The notes beneath the pieces are model-generated. The model was not told the DNA's origin. It did not search any database and saw nothing but the letters and a program-made list of their open reading frames with translations. From contig OZ024748.1 in assembly GCA_964016885.1 (NCBI GenBank), positions 43,028,001-43,092,000 of the forward strand: 64,000 bases of DNA, written 5' to 3'. The translations under genes were made by a program, and so were the position numbers. Positions 3,186 to 51,699 of this stretch are shown here, in pieces (the first letter of the stretch is position 1; the number at the start of each line of letters is the position of its first letter). This DNA is from Eledone cirrhosa. Lineage: Eukaryota.

Positions 3186-3513
3186 TGATTTGATCAGAGA
3201 CACACACTGTGTTTAAGGTTGAGTGACGCAATTTTGAGTGATTAGCGGCCTTTAGACTCACCTGATCAATGAAACAATTGTTAATACTGTAAATAAAACC
3301 CTTTTTCTACAGCCGACCATATTATTCTTCACTCTTTCACTACTATTACTCCAAGAATAACCTGCATGGGAATTGTCGCAAACTCGCCACCTAACTAAGG
3401 AAACCTCTTGAGTCAAACAACGCCGTATGTTAAAACTATCCATAGTACAGAGTACTCACAACCTCTAACTGGATTACCTAAAACAATAACTTGTAACCCA
3501 CACATATATATAT

Positions 3514-3896
3514 GGAGGCACATGGCTTAGTGGTTAGAGCATTGGCCTTGCAATCGAAAAGTTGTGAGTTCAATTCTCAGACTGGGTGATGTGTTGTTTC
3601 CTTGAGCAAGACACTTTATTTCACATTGCTCCAGTTTACTCAGCTGTAGAAATGAGATGATAGGACTGGGGTCCCTATCATTCCACTGCAAAGTGGTCGT
3701 GGAGGTGCCACGGCAAAAAAAAGCACCCAGCCCACACTGGACGTGGAGGTGCCACAGGGGGAAAAAAAAGCACCCAGCACTCACTGTAAATGAGGTTGGT
3801 GTTAGGAAGGGCATCCAGCTGTAGAAATCAAGCCAGAATCGTTCCCGTCCTACCTTTGCAAGCAGGGAAAAGCGGACGTATGATGATGATGATGAT
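3514..3896 (+). mobile_element. tRNA-derived CORE-type SINE
   Basis: A box TGGCTTAGTGG, B box GAGTTCAATTC, CORE-like CCTTGAGCAAGACACTT..CTCAGCTGTAGAAATG, (GAT)n tail. Confidence 0.85.
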
Positions 3897-11109: not shown

Positions 11110-11713
11110 GTCAGGTCACCAGTTGGTGCTACTGGTAACATGTATCCCAGTACAACCTGTTTCATGGTCGGGTCGTTGGCGACTAAACTGGCAACCCCAC
11201 CAAGGTTTCTTGGTGAGGAGGGTGACTTTGGACATCCTGCAGGACTAAAAACAAAACCTGTCAAAGGGCAAAGGAGCTCTTAAGAGTCAATGGCCATCCA
11301 AAATCACTGGGAGAGACGACCCCTTAGCCTTTGTCAAGGCAGAATTCTAGGAGAAGGAAAACTCTGATATAACACCTGCAACCCTGATGGTATCCAATGA
11401 TGTTGACTTGTTCTACTTTTTGGTAAATATCATCTTGGTTAAGAGAGTGGGACTGGCTCTGTGCAATGCCTTTGCTCACTATAAAAGCTTCATGGCACAG
11501 GCATTGCTTTATATCTGGAGATCTCTGCACTTGTCACATGGTACCATGGGCCCAGGACTATGTGTCAATAATTGTCACAAGTGTAGTGTTTGTACCAGAG
11601 TTATCAAGTCGCTGGCTGGACTCAAAAGTCACACTCATTCAGCGCATCGGTAGGGGTTCTCCTACATGGATATAAAGTAGTGGCCGTACTCGAAAACGAG
11701 TTGGCAGCCGCCA
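11110..11713 (+). mobile_element. Non-autonomous/internally deleted RTE-type retroelement
   Basis: Structured 5' part; 3' part encodes [22 protein letters not shown] (C2H2-like LINE C-terminus); second copy at 51700-52111. Confidence 0.55.
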
Positions 11714-11989
11714 TGTATGTATGTATGTATGTATGTATGTATAGATATGTATGTATGTATGTATAGATATGTATGTATATATAGATATGTATGTATGTAT
11801 ATATAGATATATGTATGTATGTATATATAGATATATGTATGTATGTATATATAGATATATGTATGTATGTATATATAGATATATATATGTATATATATAT
11901 GTATATGTATATATATATATGTATGTATATATATATGTATATGTATGTATATGTATATATATATATATATATGTATATGTATGTATATG

Positions 11990-12020
<31 letters not shown>

Positions 12021-12143
12021 GTATATATATATGTATATGTATATATATATGTATATATATATGTATATATATATGTATATGTATATATGTATATGTATAT
12101 GTATATATGTATATGTATATATGCATATGTATATATATATATG

Positions 12144-12175
<32 letters not shown>

Positions 12176-12225
12176 TGTATATGTATATATGTATATATAT
12201 ATATATATATGTATATGTATATATG

Positions 12226-12279
<54 letters not shown>

Positions 12280-12562
12280 TGTATATGTATATATGTATAT
12301 ATATATATGTATATGTATATATGCATATGTATATATATATATATATATGTATATGTATATATGTATATATATATATGTATATGTATATATGCATATGTAT
12401 ATATATATATATATGTATATGTATATATGTATATATGCATATGTATATATATGTATATGTATATATGCATGTGTATATGTATGTATATGTGTATATGTAT
12501 GTATATATGTATATGTATGTATATATGTATATATGTATATATATATATATGTATATATGTAT

Positions 12563-12594
<32 letters not shown>

Positions 12595-13736
12595 GTATAT
12601 ATGTATATGTATATATGTATATATATGTGTATGAATGTATATATATATATATATGTGTATCTATGTGTGTATATATGTGTGTGTGTGTATATGTATATAG
12701 ATATATATATGTGTGTGTGTGTGTATATGTATATAGATATATATATATGTATATGTATGTATGTATATATAGATATATGTATGTATGTATATATAGATAA
12801 TTGTATGTATGTATGTATGTATGTATATATATGTATAGATAGATAGATATATATAGATAGATATATATATGTATATATAGATAGATAGATATATCTATAT
12901 ATATATATATATATGTATATATAGATATATGTGTATGTATGTATATATAGATATGTATATGTATATATATATAGATATATATATGTATATGTATGTATAT
13001 ATATATATATATGTATATGTATGTATATATATATATATGTATATGTATGTATATATATATATATGTATATGTATGTATATATATATATATATGTATATGT
13101 ATGTATATATATATGTATATGTATGTATATATATATATATATGTATATGTATGTATATATATATATATATGTATATGTATGTATATATATATATATATGT
13201 ATATGTATGTATATATATATGTATATGTATGTATATATATATATATATGTATATGTATGTATATATATATATATGTATATGTATGTATATATATATATAT
13301 GTATATGTATGTATATATAGATATATGTATATGTATGTATATATAGATATATGTATATGTATGTATATATAGATATATGTATGTATATATAGATATATGT
13401 ATATGTATATATAGATATATGTATATGTATGTATATATATATATATGTATATGTATGTATATATAGATATATGTATATGTATGTATATATAGATATATGT
13501 ATATGTATGTATATATAGATATATGTATATATATATATGTATATGTATATGTATGTATATGTATATATATGTATATGTATGTATATATAGATATATGTAT
13601 GTATATATAGATATATGTATATATATATAGATATATGTATATATATATATATGTATATATATATGTGTATATATGTATAAAGATATGTATATATAGATAT
13701 ATGTATATATATATGTGTATATATGTATAAAGATAT

Positions 13737-13774
<38 letters not shown>

Positions 13775-13888
13775 GTGTATATATATAGGTGTATATATGT
13801 ATATAGATATGTGTATATATATATGTATATATATGTATATATATATATATATATATGTGTATATAAATATGTATGTGTATATATATAT
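11714..13888. repeat. ~2.2-kb compound (TA)/(TATG)/(TAGA) microsatellite
   Basis: Direct inspection. Confidence 0.95.
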
Positions 13889-14234
13889 CTAATGTGCTAC
13901 TGGATCTAATTTTACTCTCCGCGGTCGTCTGTGTTATACTCTTACTAATGTGCAGTATCTAATCCCTGTTTGAGCATTAAACATTGATGTTATTTTCTAT
14001 TGTTCTCAAATGCTGCTTGTCGATCAAAATGTGTAGCATGTGTCTTGGAATCCTGCTCAGCTGTTCTCCTAGTCTGGTTTGATCTGGTCTGATCTGGTTT
14101 GGTCATCTGTCTGACTGGTCACCACAACAGTTTCCTTACTTTAGCTCTTCTCTATAACCTCTTTCCTTTTTGCCATGACTTTGCTACCTGTGTGTACACG
14201 GCCCCCTGTGTAGACTAGTGAGTTTTATTTCCAG

Positions 14235-27429: not shown

Positions 27430-27815
27430 ATATAGTTGTGTATAATGGTAGATATGGTGCTTCCATAGGAGGTATGCCAAAATTAGCACTCAATATTCAG
27501 CAGAGTAGAGTGTAAATAGTATAAAGAAAACGAAAAATCAGTGATGCATCTGGACTTAATTTATTGCATGTTACAATTGTTTCGCCGGCAGGTAGCTCGA
27601 GACATGGTCCCTGTATGGTAGTTCATTCGGAGAAAATTTTATCAGTGATAAAATTTGCACCGAACAAACTACCCGTGCCTGAAAGAACCTGCAGCCGCAG
27701 AATCAGCCAGATCCATACAGGGACCATGTCTCGAGCTACCTGCCGGCGAAACAATTATAACACGCAATAAATTAAGTCCAGATGCATCACTGATTTTTCG
27801 TTTTCTTTATTCTAT
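27430..27815. mobile_element. Palindromic Penelope-like element (arms 27521-27618 / 27713-27810)
   Basis: ~98-bp inverted repeat between TA tracts; degenerate hammerhead (ctgaaaga ... GAAACAATTRTA). Confidence 0.55.
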
Positions 27816-27877
27816 ATATTATATATTTATATATATACGATATTAACAAATGGAAACTATATTTATAAAACCATATT

Positions 27878-27942
27878 TATTTCATTATACATATTTCAAG
27901 GATACCAAGTTAAATTATGGTGTGCTTTCATCAGATAAAATG
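27878..27942 (-). ncRNA. Antisense hammerhead motif, left arm of the 27838-28147 palindrome
   Basis: Reverse complement: cattttat-CTGATGA-aagcacaccat...tggtatcctt-GAAA-tatgta-TA-atgaaata. Confidence 0.7.
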
Positions 27943-28042
27943 TAATATAGATCAGTTTTATAAGCTCTCGGGAGCTTCCAACAGTAATGGTTGCATTTTT
28001 TAAGGGTATGTCAATATTTATTTATAAAACTGATCTATATTA

Positions 28043-28107
28043 TATTTTATCTGATGAAAGCACACCATAATTTAACTTGGTGTCCTTGAAATATTTATAA
28101 TGAAATA
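28043..28107 (+). ncRNA. Type I minimal hammerhead motif, second family
   Basis: tattttat-CTGATGA-aagcacacca..tggtgtcctt-GAAA-t attt a-TA-atgaaata; 8-bp stem I, ~9-bp stem II, minimal stem III. Confidence 0.75.
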
Positions 28108-28933
28108 AATATGGTTTTATAAATATAGTTTCCATTTGTTAATATCGTATTTTTACTCCAAATATTTGTTGAGTGCTTTATATCAGTTATAAAAATATTT
28201 GCTTGCTGTATCCCAACAATTTAAATAGAACTTTTACATATATATATATATAGACTGAATACCCCTGTTATAATGAGTGGGGTACTCAGCAGATACTAGG
28301 GTAATCAAGAAGTCCAGGTGAGACAATATCATTATGTCAGTGTCTTAAATACACTTGCTATAATTGGTGAAGTACTCAATACGCACAAGGAAGATCCTCT
28401 AAACTCTATGGACTACTCTTATAGAAAAGAATTAAAACATTAAAACCATATAGATTGTTGGTAGTTTATATTGCAGACAGCTTGATTAGTCTGATGTGAA
28501 TAATTGTTCTAATTAAGGTTAAATGATTGATAATCTCCACCTCCTCCTCATTAGCAATTAACAATCAGTCCTTAACACTAATCATCACATACAAGTAATA
28601 ACAGTTAGCATGTATCACTTGATAAAAGCCTGGTTTAATATAATTCATCACAGCAATATAGTTATAAGGTCAGTTGTAAAGATATAACTAGTTATATTTC
28701 TTGTTTATTTACGTCTACTAACACTGTGAAAACTGATAGTTTTGTCTAGTATATTTAACGAGCTCTACATTTGTGTGCTCATACTTATATACACATGTAC
28801 ACATAGTCTTATATACCACTTTCTCCTTGCTAGCATGGGTTGAATGGGTGTTTGTTCTCAGAGGAAATGTTTTCGTTTGGATGAATGAATTCCTTTCCCA
28901 GCATGAACTATTCCACCTATTGTGGACCAGTAT

Positions 28934-49988: not shown

Positions 49989-50039
<51 letters not shown>

Positions 50040-50042
50040 GTG

Positions 50043-50073
<31 letters not shown>

Positions 50074-50092
50074 GTATATATATATGTGTATA

Positions 50093-50145
<53 letters not shown>

Positions 50146-50230
50146 ATATATATGTATATATATGTATATATATATATATGTATATGTATATATATATGTA
50201 TATATATATGTATATATATATGTATATATG

Positions 50231-50265
<35 letters not shown>

Positions 50266-50280
50266 GTATATATATATGTG

Positions 50281-50313
<33 letters not shown>

Positions 50314-50316
50314 GTG

Positions 50317-50349
<33 letters not shown>

Positions 50350-50458
50350 GTGTATATATATATATATATGTATATATATATGTGTATATATATATATGTG
50401 TATATATGTATATATATATGTGTATATATATATATATACACACATATATATGTATATA

Positions 50459-50502
<44 letters not shown>

Positions 50503-50788
50503 TATGTATATATATATGTGTATATATATATGTGTATATATATATATATATATACACACATATATATGTATATATATATATGTGTATATATATATATATA
50601 TATACACACATATATATGTATATATATATGTGTGTATATATATATATATATACACACATATGTATGTATATATATGTATGTGTATGTATATATATGTATG
50701 TGTATATATATATATGTATGTGTATGTATATATATGTATGTGTATGTATATATATGTATGTGTATGTATATATATATATGTGTATATA

Positions 50789-51120
50789 CGATATTAAATA
50801 AATGGAAACTATATTTATAAAACCATATTTATTTCATTATATATATTTCAGGGATATCATATTAAAAATACGGTATGCCTTCATCAGACAAAATACAATA
50901 TAAACAGTCTTATAAATAGATAGATTTGACATACCTTACACTTCAACTTCCATTTAAAAAGTTGATTTGGTAGTGAAATCACTACCAAATCAACTTTGGT
51001 TTTATAAATATAGTTTCCATTTATTTAATATCGTAAATATACTCCAAATACTTGTTGAGTGCTTCTATATCAGTTATAAATATTTACTCGTTGTAACCCA
51101 ACAAATTAAATAAAACTTTG
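50789..51120. mobile_element. Palindromic Penelope-like element, same family as 27838-28235
   Basis: Shares the cgatatta..aatggaaactatatttataaaacca arms and the 3' tail; embedded in long (TA/TG)n. Confidence 0.6.
50830..50895 (-). ncRNA. Hammerhead motif, second family, diverged copy
   Basis: Reverse complement: tattttgt-CTGATGA-agg...cct-GAAA-tatata-TA-atgaaata; the stem II base covaries (agg/cct vs aag/ctt). Confidence 0.7.
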
Positions 51121-51204
51121 CATATGTGTATATATATATATACGTGTATATATATATATATGTGTATATATATATATATATATATGTGTATATATATATA
51201 TATA

Positions 51205-51299
<95 letters not shown>

Positions 51300-51590
51300 A
51301 TATATGTATATATATGTATATATATGTGTATATATATGTATATATATGTATATATATGTGTATATATATATGTGTGTATATATATATATGTGTGTATATA
51401 TATATATGTGTGTATATATGTATATATATGTATATATATGTGTATATATATATGTGTGTATATATATATATGTGTGTATATATATATATGTGTGTATATA
51501 TATATATGTGTATATATATATGTGTGTATATATATATATGTGTATATGTATATATGTGTATATATATATATATATATTTGTGTATATATA

Positions 51591-51689
<99 letters not shown>

Positions 51690-51699
51690 GTGTGTATAT

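What the first reader, a model, noticed from the sequence alone, without database searches (positions are those of the whole stretch)
27838..28235. Second, unrelated palindromic family with paired hammerheads and covarying stems
Seen: ~125-bp inverted arms, each with tattttat-CTGATGA-[~9-bp stem II]-GAAA-minimal stem III-UA-atgaaata. The related copy at 50830-50895 keeps the core and shows a compensatory change at the stem II base (aag/ctt vs agg/cct) and a palindromic ATAT loop 3. Unrelated sequence with the same architecture points to a shared mobilisation mechanism rather than chance.
Basis: partly seen in the sequence, partly recalled or inferred. Interest (0 to 1): 0.75.

Follow-up and report, generated by a model that had tools for sequence, protein, structure and literature searches.

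The report
Head-to-head Penelope retrotransposon ends with hammerheads
The palindrome is two truncated copies of the tail end of a very abundant Penelope-like retrotransposon lying head to head, each carrying that element's small hammerhead-type RNA motif, which is predicted (not shown) to self-cleave; this is an ordinary, already described arrangement for this class of mobile DNA.

Summary
Arms of 134 nt, 96% complementary, lie at 27830-27963 and 28022-28155.

It is not a new palindromic ribozyme family. The arm is the last about 180 bp of a Penelope-like element (PLE). That element has an RT/GIY-YIG-type ORF about 1.8 kb upstream, sits in (TA)n, and has an optional 88-bp read-through tail. 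There are at least 21,840 exact copies of its 3' motif.

The palindrome is the known PLE pattern of an inverted 5'-truncated copy next to a direct one:
- Head-to-head neighbours outnumber tail-to-tail 20 to 3.
- Inner junctions differ between copies.

On 61 distinct copies, three stem II pairs covary. A second PLE family has the same design with a different stem I.

No Rfam hammerhead model matches. The 10.1-11.1 pair is A-U. No RNA data were available, and copy 5' ends are not enriched at the predicted cut. Cleavage is therefore only predicted.

Verdict: new member of a known kind, low interest.

The parts
27806..27835 (.). TA-rich microsatellite flank (target) on the left
   Evidence: Sequence read. 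Solo and paired copies elsewhere also sit in (TA)n.
27836..27963 (-). Inverted, 5'-truncated copy of the PLE 3' end (left arm). Its outer end is the element's 3' terminus (reverse complement of ...TTAATATCGTA).
   Evidence: 97.8% identical to the 3' end of the long copy in L026. Arm of the inverted repeat.
27879..27942 (-). Hammerhead-type motif of the left arm (CTGATGA 27934-27928, GAAA 27897-27894, A17 at 27886; predicted cut between 27886 and 27885 on the - strand)
   Evidence: Pattern match. Row 2 of alignment A2.
27964..27967 (.). 4-nt junction (gctc) between the inverted and the direct copy
   Evidence: Junction sequences differ among 16 palindromes examined.
27968..28147 (+). Direct copy of the 180-bp terminal unit of the PLE (starts at the recurrent 5' end ..CGGGAGC, ends ..TTAATATCGTA)
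   Evidence: 98-99% identical to solo units in 10 loci. Contiguous with the PLE 3' UTR in L026, L045-L049.
28043..28107 (+). Hammerhead-type motif of the right arm: stem I 28043-28050/28100-28107, core 28051-28057, stem II 28058-28066/28079-28087, GAAA 28088-28091, stem III/loop 28092-28098, A17 28099 (predicted cut after 28099)
   Evidence: The centroid fold reproduces stems I and II. Stem II covariation.
28148..28235 (+). Optional 88-bp extension ('tail'). The same sequence is the start of the 5' UTR that leads into the ORF in a full-length arrangement.
   Evidence: Present in 5 of 10 solo loci. In L100 it follows the unit and is followed about 50 nt later by the ATG of the RT/EN ORF.
28236..28252 (.). 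(TA)n flank on the right
50780..50935 (-). Second, older copy (subfamily C): inverted 3'-end copy with hammerhead-type motif (CTGATGA 50887-50881, GAAA 50849-50846, A17 at 50838)
   Evidence: 84.7% to the L026 3' end..
50987..51141 (+). Direct partner of the second copy: only the last ~50 nt of the unit plus the extension (no hammerhead motif)
   Evidence: 86.6% to L026 3' end positions 1901-2051. Sequence.

Best explanation
The feature is a head-to-head pair of 5'-truncated copies of the 3' end of a highly abundant Penelope-like retrotransposon (PLE) inserted in a (TA)n microsatellite, and each copy carries the element's minimal type-I hammerhead-type motif, which is predicted, not shown, to self-cleave after A28099 (and after A27886 on the other strand), likely only when two sense copies pair through their palindromic stem III.

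Shown here:
- The arms are the terminal 126-180 bp of an element whose RT/GIY-YIG-type ORF lies about 1.8 kb upstream.
- The unit also occurs solo, and just upstream of the ORF (a pseudo-LTR).
- Head-to-head pairs are strongly over-represented and have different inner junctions.
- Stem II covaries.

Inferred:
- The pair likely arose in one integration event. The element's endonuclease would cut both target strands and reverse transcription would start on both, as reported in vitro for an Anolis PLE (PMC11167929). That gives two cDNAs whose 3' termini face outward.
- The two alternative outer ends (after ..ATATCGTA and 88 bp further) would be two alternative reverse-transcription start sites.
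- The fixed 5' end of the 180-bp unit is possibly the transcription start of the pseudo-LTR promoter.
- The palindrome itself likely has no ribozyme function.
For: (1) PLE identity.
- A peptide from the unique centre of the 2.8-kb palindromic copy in L026 finds 39,755 first-look candidates in the genome, with open frames up to 645 aa.
- These ORFs carry YRDD, a Cys-rich linker and IVY..YVGST..R..H.
- The alignment of 20 relatives has invariant Y-R-D-D and Y..Y-G..R..H.
- GIY-YIG Pfam hits 2 of 20 members, best E 0.0011.
- Atlas neighbours carry GIY-YIG, RVT_1 and HTH_animal.

(2) Linkage of ORF and unit.
- The ORF-to-unit continuity is seen in L045-L049.
- In 19 of 20 divergent ORF copies the unit with the motif lies downstream on the same strand.
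- In L100 the unit plus extension lies just upstream of the ATG.

(3) PLE-style insertion features, as described in PMC8557442 (passages read).
- (TA)n targets.
- An inverted 5'-truncated copy next to a direct one in L026 and L045-L046.
- A 36-nt inverted tail in L103.

(4) Orientation bias and junctions.
- Among the first 100 of 21,840 exact 3'-motif sites, neighbours within 4 kb are 20 head-to-head, 3 tail-to-tail and 5 tandem.
- Of 16 palindromes with both cores, 14 have the direct copy starting within 5 nt of CGGGAGC. The inverted arm stops at different points; only L003 and L004 share a junction.

(5) Motif.
- 97.5% of 1157 cells are paired on 61 distinct copies.
- 46 cells have changes on both sides, against 15.3 in shuffles (0 of 500 as high) and 0-6 in slid controls.
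- The three covarying pairs are AU43/GC15/GU3, AU43/GC10/GU6 and CG38/UA20/UG2.
- A second PLE family (L059:2606-2772) has the same layout: an 11-bp stem II with a C.C mismatch at the same 4th position, TATATATA stem III and about 47 nt to the 3' end. Its stem I is a different, G/C-containing sequence, and its 10.1-11.1 pair is G-C.

(6) Published PLE hammerheads are described with a long helix II, a short helix I, a palindromic helix III/loop 3, and 'dual min-HHRs 100-700 bp apart on opposite strands' (PMC4209133, text read).
Against: - No Rfam hammerhead model matches, even on 77 nt at E<=10.
- The 10.1-11.1 pair is A-U, and there is no unpaired base between A9 and 10.1. PMC4209133 lists G10.1-C11.1 and that extra base as consistent features of PLE hammerheads.
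- Stems I and III show no change on both sides within this family. They are all A/U, which is easy to get in this AT-rich DNA.
- The 60 nt after the predicted cut are more conserved than the core, so core conservation alone does not single out a ribozyme.
- The monomer fold is only modestly better than shuffles (z -1.98).
- Copies beginning next to (AT)6 at the predicted cut (46) are no more frequent than at an AT-adjacent control point 13 nt downstream (about 50 distinct). They are far fewer than at the unit start (109 on the reverse strand alone).
- The genomic unit spans the cut site, so the templates were uncleaved RNA.
- Local Pfam scans of the window genome's own ORFs gave no family. The PDB profile search found nothing.
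- The RT/GIY-YIG call rests on motifs, weak Pfam hits and Atlas neighbours.
- The PLE clade was not determined.
Confidence: 0.85

Rival explanations
1. The conserved stem II hairpin and flanking boxes are a structural signal of the PLE 3' end, for example for recognition by its reverse transcriptase or for internal initiation. The hammerhead resemblance would then be vestigial or non-catalytic in this family. The element identity stays the same; only the function of the motif differs.
For: - The whole terminal module is conserved, most strongly the 60 nt after the predicted cut.
- In a lineage whose 3' UTR is only 72% identical, the last ~330 nt are still 90% identical.
- A-U at 10.1-11.1 and a kept C.C mismatch in stem II.
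- No Rfam hit.
- No excess of 5' ends at the cut.
- PMC11167929 (passages read) reports that hammerhead cleavage was not needed for insertion in vitro, and that no RNA-seq reads ended at the presumptive cut in Anolis.
- PMC4209133 reports low in vitro activity of metazoan PLE hammerheads.
Against: - The full set of core letters (CUGAUGA, GAAA, A15.1-U16.1, A17) is kept across subfamilies A-D and in an otherwise unrelated second family.
- The palindromic stem III expected for dimeric hammerheads is kept in 39 (AUAUGUAU) + 10 (AUAUAUAU) of 61 distinct copies.
Confidence: 0.3
2. A non-LTR retrozyme: a short hammerhead-bearing repeat that spreads through circular RNAs made from tandem copies, with the palindrome as an accidental arrangement.
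For: - Type-I motif with palindromic stem III.
- A short (180 or 268 bp) unit with defined ends, present in thousands of copies.
- A tandem dimer of unit plus extension exists in L045 7834-8387.
- A 2026 preprint (results section read) derives animal retrozymes from PLE pseudo-LTRs and reports monomers.
Against: - Tandem neighbours are rare: 2 within 400 bp and 5 within 4 kb among 100 sites.
- Unit boundaries are not at the hammerhead cut site, as would be expected for copies of circles opened at the ribozyme.
- The unit is contiguous with a coding PLE.
- No RNA data were available.
Confidence: 0.08
3. A MITE or foldback DNA transposon with long terminal inverted repeats that happens to contain a hammerhead-like string.
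For: - A near-perfect 134-nt inverted repeat with sharp, identical outer ends.
- Many 300-360-bp palindromic copies.
- A 2.8-kb copy with ~890-nt arms and no long ORF.
Against: - The same end occurs alone in most sites: 52 - and 48 + sites of 100, with only 8 short pairs.
- The inner junctions differ.
- The arms are of unequal length and one carries an extra 88-bp tail.
- The sequence is the 3' end of an RT-coding element.
- No transposase was seen.
- A (TA)n target hides any target-site duplication.
Confidence: 0.03

Closest known systems
Minimal hammerhead motifs in the pseudo-LTRs of Penelope-like elements (Cervera & de la Pena 2014, PMC4209133; main text parts 1-2 read)
   Same: - Type-I layout with a CUGAUGA/GAAA core.
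- Long helix II (9 positions here; 7-8 bp reported).
- Short or poorly closed helix I.
- Minimal helix III with a palindromic sequence, suited to dimers.
- Located in the terminal repeat of a PLE.
- Thousands of copies, mostly as single truncated motifs.
- Pairs on opposite strands 100-700 bp apart are mentioned for Schistosoma.
   Different: - 10.1-11.1 is A-U, not G-C.
- No unpaired base after A9.
- A C.C mismatch is kept at the 4th position of helix II. The paper mentions a bulge in helix II only for Drosophila virilis.
- Helix I here can reach 8 A/U pairs.
PLE insertion architecture (Craig et al. 2021, PMC8557442, passages read; Anolis PLE in vitro, PMC11167929, passages read)
   Same: - High 5' truncation.
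- An inverted 5'-truncated copy adjacent to a direct copy.
- A pseudo-LTR upstream of the ORF.
- An optional extension ('tail') at one end.
- (TA)n microsatellite targets.
- The hammerhead motif near the 3' end.
- Two reverse-transcription start sites, and extension of both target strands in vitro.
   Different: - The optional extension here is 88 bp rather than 30-40 bp. A 36-nt inverted tail is also seen in L103.
- The very short pair (126 + 180 nt) is an extreme of the truncation range.
- The clade (Neptune, Poseidon, Nematis, Hydra) was not assigned.
Non-LTR retrozymes of animals (Cervera & de la Pena 2020, PMC7229834, search listing and abstract only; Li et al. 2026 preprint 10.64898/2026.07.22.740005, abstract and results read)
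   Same: - A short non-coding unit with a type-I hammerhead related to a PLE pseudo-LTR.
- Monomers scattered through the genome.
   Different: - Retrozymes are defined by tandem arrays that give circular RNAs. Here tandem neighbours are rare and head-to-head pairs dominate.
- No circular RNA evidence was available.
MITEs / foldback elements
   Same: A short, AT-rich, multi-copy palindrome with sharp ends.
   Different: The ends are retroelement 3' termini, the arms are unequal, the junctions vary, solo ends are abundant, and the coding partner is RT/GIY-YIG rather than a transposase.

Membership tests
Hammerhead ribozyme (type I) | Conserved core C3-U4-G5-A6-N7-G8-A9 ... G12-A13-A14, A15.1-U16.1, H17 (not G) | tested here: met
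   CTGATGA 28051-57, GAAA 28088-91, U28098, A28099. CTGATGA is intact in 88 of 96 arms. It is kept in subfamilies A-D. The numbering scheme is recalled from the field and from PMC4209133.
Hammerhead ribozyme (type I) | Three helices around the core, supported by covariation | tested here: inconclusive
   Helix II has 3 of 8 pairs with changes on both sides: 46 cells against 15.3 in shuffles, 0 of 500 as high. Helices I and III show only one-sided (wobble) changes within the family. A different stem I sequence that still pairs is seen in family 2 (read by eye).
Hammerhead ribozyme (type I) | Match to curated covariance models (Rfam hammerhead families) | tested here: not met
   No hammerhead family matched at gathering score or at E<=10 on 651 nt and on 77 nt.
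Hammerhead ribozyme (type I) | Site-specific self-cleavage | not testable with these tools
   No run on record as RNA was found and only contigs could be laid. The indirect test, copy 5' ends at the cut, showed no specific excess.
PLE minimal hammerhead (Cervera & de la Pena 2014) | Long helix II and palindromic 15.2-16.2 / loop 3 | tested here: met
   Helix II has 9 positions. Stem III/loop is AUAUGUAU in 39, AUAUAUAU in 10 and AUAUUUAU in 4 of 61 distinct copies.
PLE minimal hammerhead (Cervera & de la Pena 2014) | G10.1-C11.1 pair and an unpaired base between A9 and 10.1 | tested here: not met
   A-U in 56 of 61 distinct copies at columns 25:64, with no extra base. Family 2 has G-C but also no extra base.
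PLE minimal hammerhead (Cervera & de la Pena 2014) | Location in the terminal repeat (pseudo-LTR) of a PLE | tested here: met
   The unit lies at the 3' end downstream of the ORF in 19 of 20 copies, and upstream of the ATG in L100.
Penelope-like element | Single ORF with reverse transcriptase followed by a C-terminal GIY-YIG endonuclease | tested here: inconclusive
   For: YRDD and Y..YxG..R..H are invariant in 20 relatives; GIY-YIG Pfam hits 2 of 20, E 0.0011; Atlas neighbours carry GIY-YIG, RVT_1 and HTH_animal; precomputed PF00078 on 1 of 120 hits and PF26215 on many. Against: no Pfam family on the genome's own ORFs and no PDB hit. The structure prediction was not run because the machine was busy.
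Penelope-like element | Pseudo-LTRs, inverted 5'-truncated neighbour, optional tail, microsatellite target | tested here: met
   compared with passages of PMC8557442.
Non-LTR retrozyme | Tandem head-to-tail arrays of the hammerhead unit | tested here: not met
   Tandem neighbours: 2 within 400 bp and 5 within 4 kb among 100 sites, against 20 head-to-head. One tandem dimer is seen in L045.
MITE / foldback DNA transposon | Terminal inverted repeats as the mobile unit, with target-site duplication and a transposase-coding parent | tested here: not met
   Solo ends are abundant, junctions vary, and the parent codes RT/EN. A target-site duplication cannot be read in (TA)n.

The most novel reading that the evidence does not exclude
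The 165-180-nt terminal modules of at least two unrelated PLE families in this genome behave as SINE-like elements in their own right.

Proposed mechanism:
- Short RNAs start at a fixed point inside the pseudo-LTR, possibly its transcription start about 22-27 nt after a TATA-like box.
- These RNAs are copied by the PLE enzyme from internal start sites on one or both target strands. This seeds thousands of solo units and short palindromes in (TA)n tracts.

Their hammerhead is a distinct variant: A-U at 10.1-11.1 in one family, and an invariant C.C mismatch at the 4th position of a 9-11-bp helix II in both. Because it sits in both the 5' leader and the 3' end of the full-length RNA, it could pair with itself within one molecule, cut out a unit-length RNA and perhaps circularise it.
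Probability: 0.25. Interest if true: 0.45.

Novelty: new member of a known kind. Interest (0 to 1): 0.25.

Why it matters
For genome annotation, short AT-rich palindromes with a hammerhead string in each arm should be filed as head-to-head truncated PLE ends. They are not new ribozyme-bearing palindromic elements or MITEs. By extrapolation from 8 short pairs among 100 of 21,840 sites, this one family accounts for on the order of a thousand or more such palindromes.

For PLE biology, the family offers a large natural data set:
- at least 21,840 ends
- a strong head-to-head bias
- two alternative 3' termini
- a fixed 5' end of the short unit

This fits the in vitro picture of both-strand cleavage and internal initiation, and could be mined further.

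For ribozyme biology, it adds a hammerhead-type variant with A-U at 10.1-11.1 and a conserved C.C mismatch in helix II. Its activity is untested.

Tried and rejected
- **RNA evidence:** The look-up of sequencing runs listed 5 runs, and no RNA holder was listed. Laying X1, X4 and X5 gave contigs only, so no starts, ends or circles can be read. It showed only high copy number and that G is the commoner letter at 28095.
- **Rfam hammerhead models:** no match.
- **Pfam on the genome's own ORF pieces:** nothing. Pfam on 5 relatives gave only chance-level rows.
- **PDB profile search with A1:** nothing at E<=1.
- **Earlier findings of the scan:** nothing on record for this genome.
  - CTGANGA..CGAAA gave 0 matches.
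  - A strict stem II scan gave nothing.
  - The long inverted repeats found are microsatellite blocks.
  - Family 2 and the L055-type motif are not in the window.
  - I did not find that family.
- **Copy 5' ends at the predicted cleavage site:**
  - Counts were 46 sites next to (AT)6, about 50 distinct at +13, about 8 at -16, and 109 reverse-strand sites at the unit start.
  - There is no specific excess at the cut.
  - The test is confounded because the native stem III is itself a TA run.
  - Forward-strand counts include overlapping duplicates.
- **MITE/foldback reading:** my first guess. Rejected.
- **HDV-like or other ribozyme at the fixed 5' end of the unit:** no Rfam hit at E<=10.
Full report
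**1. What is in the sequence**

The repeat finder gives inverted arms at 27830-27963 and 28022-28155. They are 134 nt long, 96% complementary, with 58 nt between them.

Reading, the right arm carries:
- CTGATGA (28051-28057)
- a 9-position stem II (28058-28066 with 28079-28087, with a C.C mismatch at the 4th position)
- GAAA (28088-28091)
- an 8-nt A/U stretch that can form only a 2-3-bp stem III
- A at 28099
- a 3' strand (28100-28107) that pairs with 28043-28050 (8 pairs, one G.U)

The left arm carries the mirror image on the minus strand. A diverged copy lies at 50846-50887 on the minus strand.

The core pattern occurs 7 times in the window against 1.22 expected, and 0 of 100 shuffles reach 7. 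Four of the 7 rows are this family.

The RNA centroid fold of 28036-28112 reproduces stems I and II (MFE -11.6 kcal/mol, z -1.98).

No Rfam hammerhead model matches at any threshold tried.

**2. The family and its forms**

The window lies in a 3.0-Gb eukaryotic assembly. The 310-bp palindrome finds 90 matches from 40 scored candidates. Three forms appear:
- Palindromes of 264-365 bp.
- A solo 180-bp unit equal to window 27968-28147, running from ..CGGGAGC to ..TTAATATCGTA. It is 98-99% identical between loci and flanked by (TA)n.
- Long palindromic copies, such as L026 364-3202 with about 890-nt arms.

About half of the copies continue for 88 bp beyond ..ATATCGTA (window 28148-28235) before the (TA)n flank.

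An exact 42-mer from the 3' part occurs 10,956 + 10,884 times in the genome. The reversed control occurs 0 times.

**3. It is the 3' end of a Penelope-like element**

*The ORF.*
- The unique centre of the L026 copy contains a decayed ORF. Its peptide finds 39,755 first-look candidates (150 scored), with open frames up to 645 aa.
- These ORFs show YRDD, a Cys-rich linker and IVY..YVGST..R..H.
- 177 homologues were found elsewhere.
- In an alignment of 20, Y-R-D-D and Y..Y-G..R..H are invariant.

*Domain support.*
- Domain support is indirect.
- Pfam GIY-YIG hits 2 of 20 members (best E 0.0011).
- Precomputed PF26215/PF28514 appear on many hits and PF00078 on one.
- Atlas neighbours carry GIY-YIG, RVT_1 and HTH_animal, both for the whole protein and for its C-terminal 164 residues.
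- Pfam on the genome's own ORFs and a PDB profile search gave nothing.

*Linkage of ORF and unit.*
- The ORF is physically continuous with the unit. In L045-L049 the order is ORF, about 1.6-kb 3' UTR, then unit.
- In 19 of 20 further, more divergent ORF copies the unit with its motif lies downstream on the same strand. The distance is mostly 1.8-2.2 kb.
- In L100 the unit plus the 88-bp extension lies directly upstream of the ORF, whose ATG follows about 50 nt later.
- So the unit is a pseudo-LTR, and the 'extension' is the beginning of the 5' UTR.

**4. Why it is a palindrome**

*What is published.*
- PMC8557442 (passages) describes PLEs as highly 5'-truncated. They often have an inverted 5'-truncated copy adjacent to the direct one, an optional tail, (TA)n targets and a hammerhead motif near the 3' end.
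- PMC11167929 (passages) reports that an Anolis PLE protein cleaves and extends both target strands. It also initiates reverse transcription at two internal sites.

*What is seen here.*
- L045 and L046 have an inverted ~450-nt copy just upstream of a direct ORF-bearing copy.
- L103 has a 36-nt inverted terminal piece.
- Among the first 100 exact-motif sites, neighbours within 4 kb are 20 head-to-head, 3 tail-to-tail and 5 tandem. Within 400 bp the counts are 8, 1 and 2.
- Independent insertions into the same microsatellite would give equal head-to-head and tail-to-tail numbers. One such tail-to-tail cluster is seen in L045.
- In the 16 palindromes that retain both cores (of 20 examined; 4 lacked a core string), the direct copy starts within 5 nt of CGGGAGC in 14. 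The inverted arm stops at different points, and only L003 and L004 share a junction.

*Inference.* Palindromes form anew at integration rather than spreading as palindromes. The window copy is one such event in (TA)n: an inverted arm of about 128 nt, a 4-nt junction, and a direct 180-nt unit with the 88-nt tail.

The copy at 50780-51141 is an older event of the same kind. It has an inverted 156-nt arm, an unrelated 18-bp hairpin, and a direct ~50-nt end plus extension.

**5. Is the motif a hammerhead?**

*For.*
- I aligned 61 distinct motif regions drawn from 96 arms. Overlapping loci were dropped, and only arms covering the region were kept.
- On this alignment the proposed structure has 97.5% of 1157 cells paired.
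- Three stem II pairs have changes on both sides (AU43/GC15/GU3; AU43/GC10/GU6; CG38/UA20/UG2).
- That is 46 such cells against 15.3 in shuffles (0 of 500 as high), and 0-6 when partners are slid.
- These counts are copies, not events. They reflect a few subfamily-level substitutions.
- The core is kept in all subfamilies.
- Stem III is self-complementary in most copies, as expected for hammerheads that act as dimers (PMC4209133).
- A second family has the same layout with a G/C-containing stem I, G-C at 10.1-11.1 and the same C.C mismatch. This is L059:2606-2772, a 165-bp unit at 96-98% identity in 40 scored copies. A PLE-type endonuclease ORF lies about 1 kb upstream in 4 loci.

*Against.*
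- No Rfam match.
- A-U at 10.1-11.1, and no unpaired base after A9.
- Stems I and III are all A/U, with only wobble changes.
- The flank after the cut is more conserved than the core.
- Single copies lose the core: CTGATGA is intact in 88 of 96 arms.
- The dimer is only modestly favoured in cofold, for example -34.4 against -31.8 kcal/mol.

**6. Attempts to see activity**

- No run on record as RNA was found, and only contigs could be laid.
- As a proxy I counted copies whose 5' end abuts (AT)6:
  - 46 at the predicted cut (11 of 12 inspected have no upstream motif half)
  - about 50 distinct at +13
  - about 8 at -16
  - at least 218 at the unit start, taken as twice the 109 reverse-strand hits
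- The cut site is not singled out. TA-run microhomology confounds the test.
- A transcript through the palindrome folds into a hairpin of -188.7 kcal/mol. The paired arrangement would therefore mask the motif rather than help it.

**7. Comparison and verdict**

The feature matches published descriptions of PLE ends and PLE hammerheads in position, layout, target, truncation pattern and inverted pairing.

It differs in three details:
- the A-U closing pair
- the conserved C.C mismatch
- the longer (88-bp) optional tail

The fixed 5' end of the short unit has a TATA-like box 22-27 nt upstream in long copies. This suggests that short pseudo-LTR transcripts are being copied. That is inference only.

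Searches for 'hammerhead ribozyme' with 'cephalopod' returned 4 papers, of which 2 were listed. I did not check either for a description of this family.

The only taxon hint is a source-given name on one homologue. I did not pursue it.

The finding is real and well explained. It is a new member of a known kind and of low general interest.

Noticed in passing
L059:2606-2772 (G000:C1:382676805-382676971): A second, unrelated 165-bp hammerhead-bearing unit. It has a G/C stem I, G-C at 10.1-11.1, an 11-bp helix II with a C.C mismatch at the 4th position, TATATATA as stem III and about 47 nt to the 3' end. It sits in (TA)n. There are 167 first-look candidates; 40 were scored, at 96-98% identity. 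About 12 of 29 loci start sharply at the same base, and 0 of 29 have an inverted partner within 1.5 kb. A PLE-type EN ORF lies about 1 kb upstream in L081, L091, L092 and L093.
   Followed up: partly
L055:1602-1645 and L056 (reverse complement) near 3407: A third hammerhead-like string of canonical PLE type: CTGAAGA, one extra G, then a 6-bp GUCACA/UGUGAC helix II closed by G-C, then GAAA. It lies in another repeat.
   Followed up: no
window 50958-50997: A perfect 18-bp hairpin with a 4-nt loop sits at the inner junction of the older head-to-head copy, between the inverted arm and the short direct end. Its origin is unknown; it may be a snap-back product.
   Followed up: no
window 27600-27738: Just upstream of the finding lies a separate ~135-bp element with 19-nt terminal inverted repeats (AGACATGGTCCCTGTATGG ... 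CCATACAGGGACCATGTCT). It is MITE-like and unrelated to the PLE end.
   Followed up: no
window 3521-3584: A borderline tRNA match on the + strand (29.1 bits against a gathering score of 29, E 0.056). It may be a tRNA-derived repeat.
   Followed up: no
window 11712-13891 and 50023-51699: Kilobase-scale blocks of TA/GTAT-type microsatellite that read as long imperfect palindromes (72-80% complementary). The second block surrounds the older PLE-end pair, which fits microsatellite targeting.
   Followed up: no
L045:7638-8390: Three PLE ends sit in one (TA)n tract: one direct end of a long copy, then two solo units with extension on the other strand in tandem (period about 287 bp). This is a rare tandem dimer that could in principle give a retrozyme-like RNA.
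   Followed up: partly
L048 (G000:C4:88943000-88952900): In a lineage whose 3' UTR is only 71-72% identical to the L026 copy, the last ~330 nt are 90.8% identical. The terminal module is conserved well beyond the rest of the UTR.
   Followed up: no
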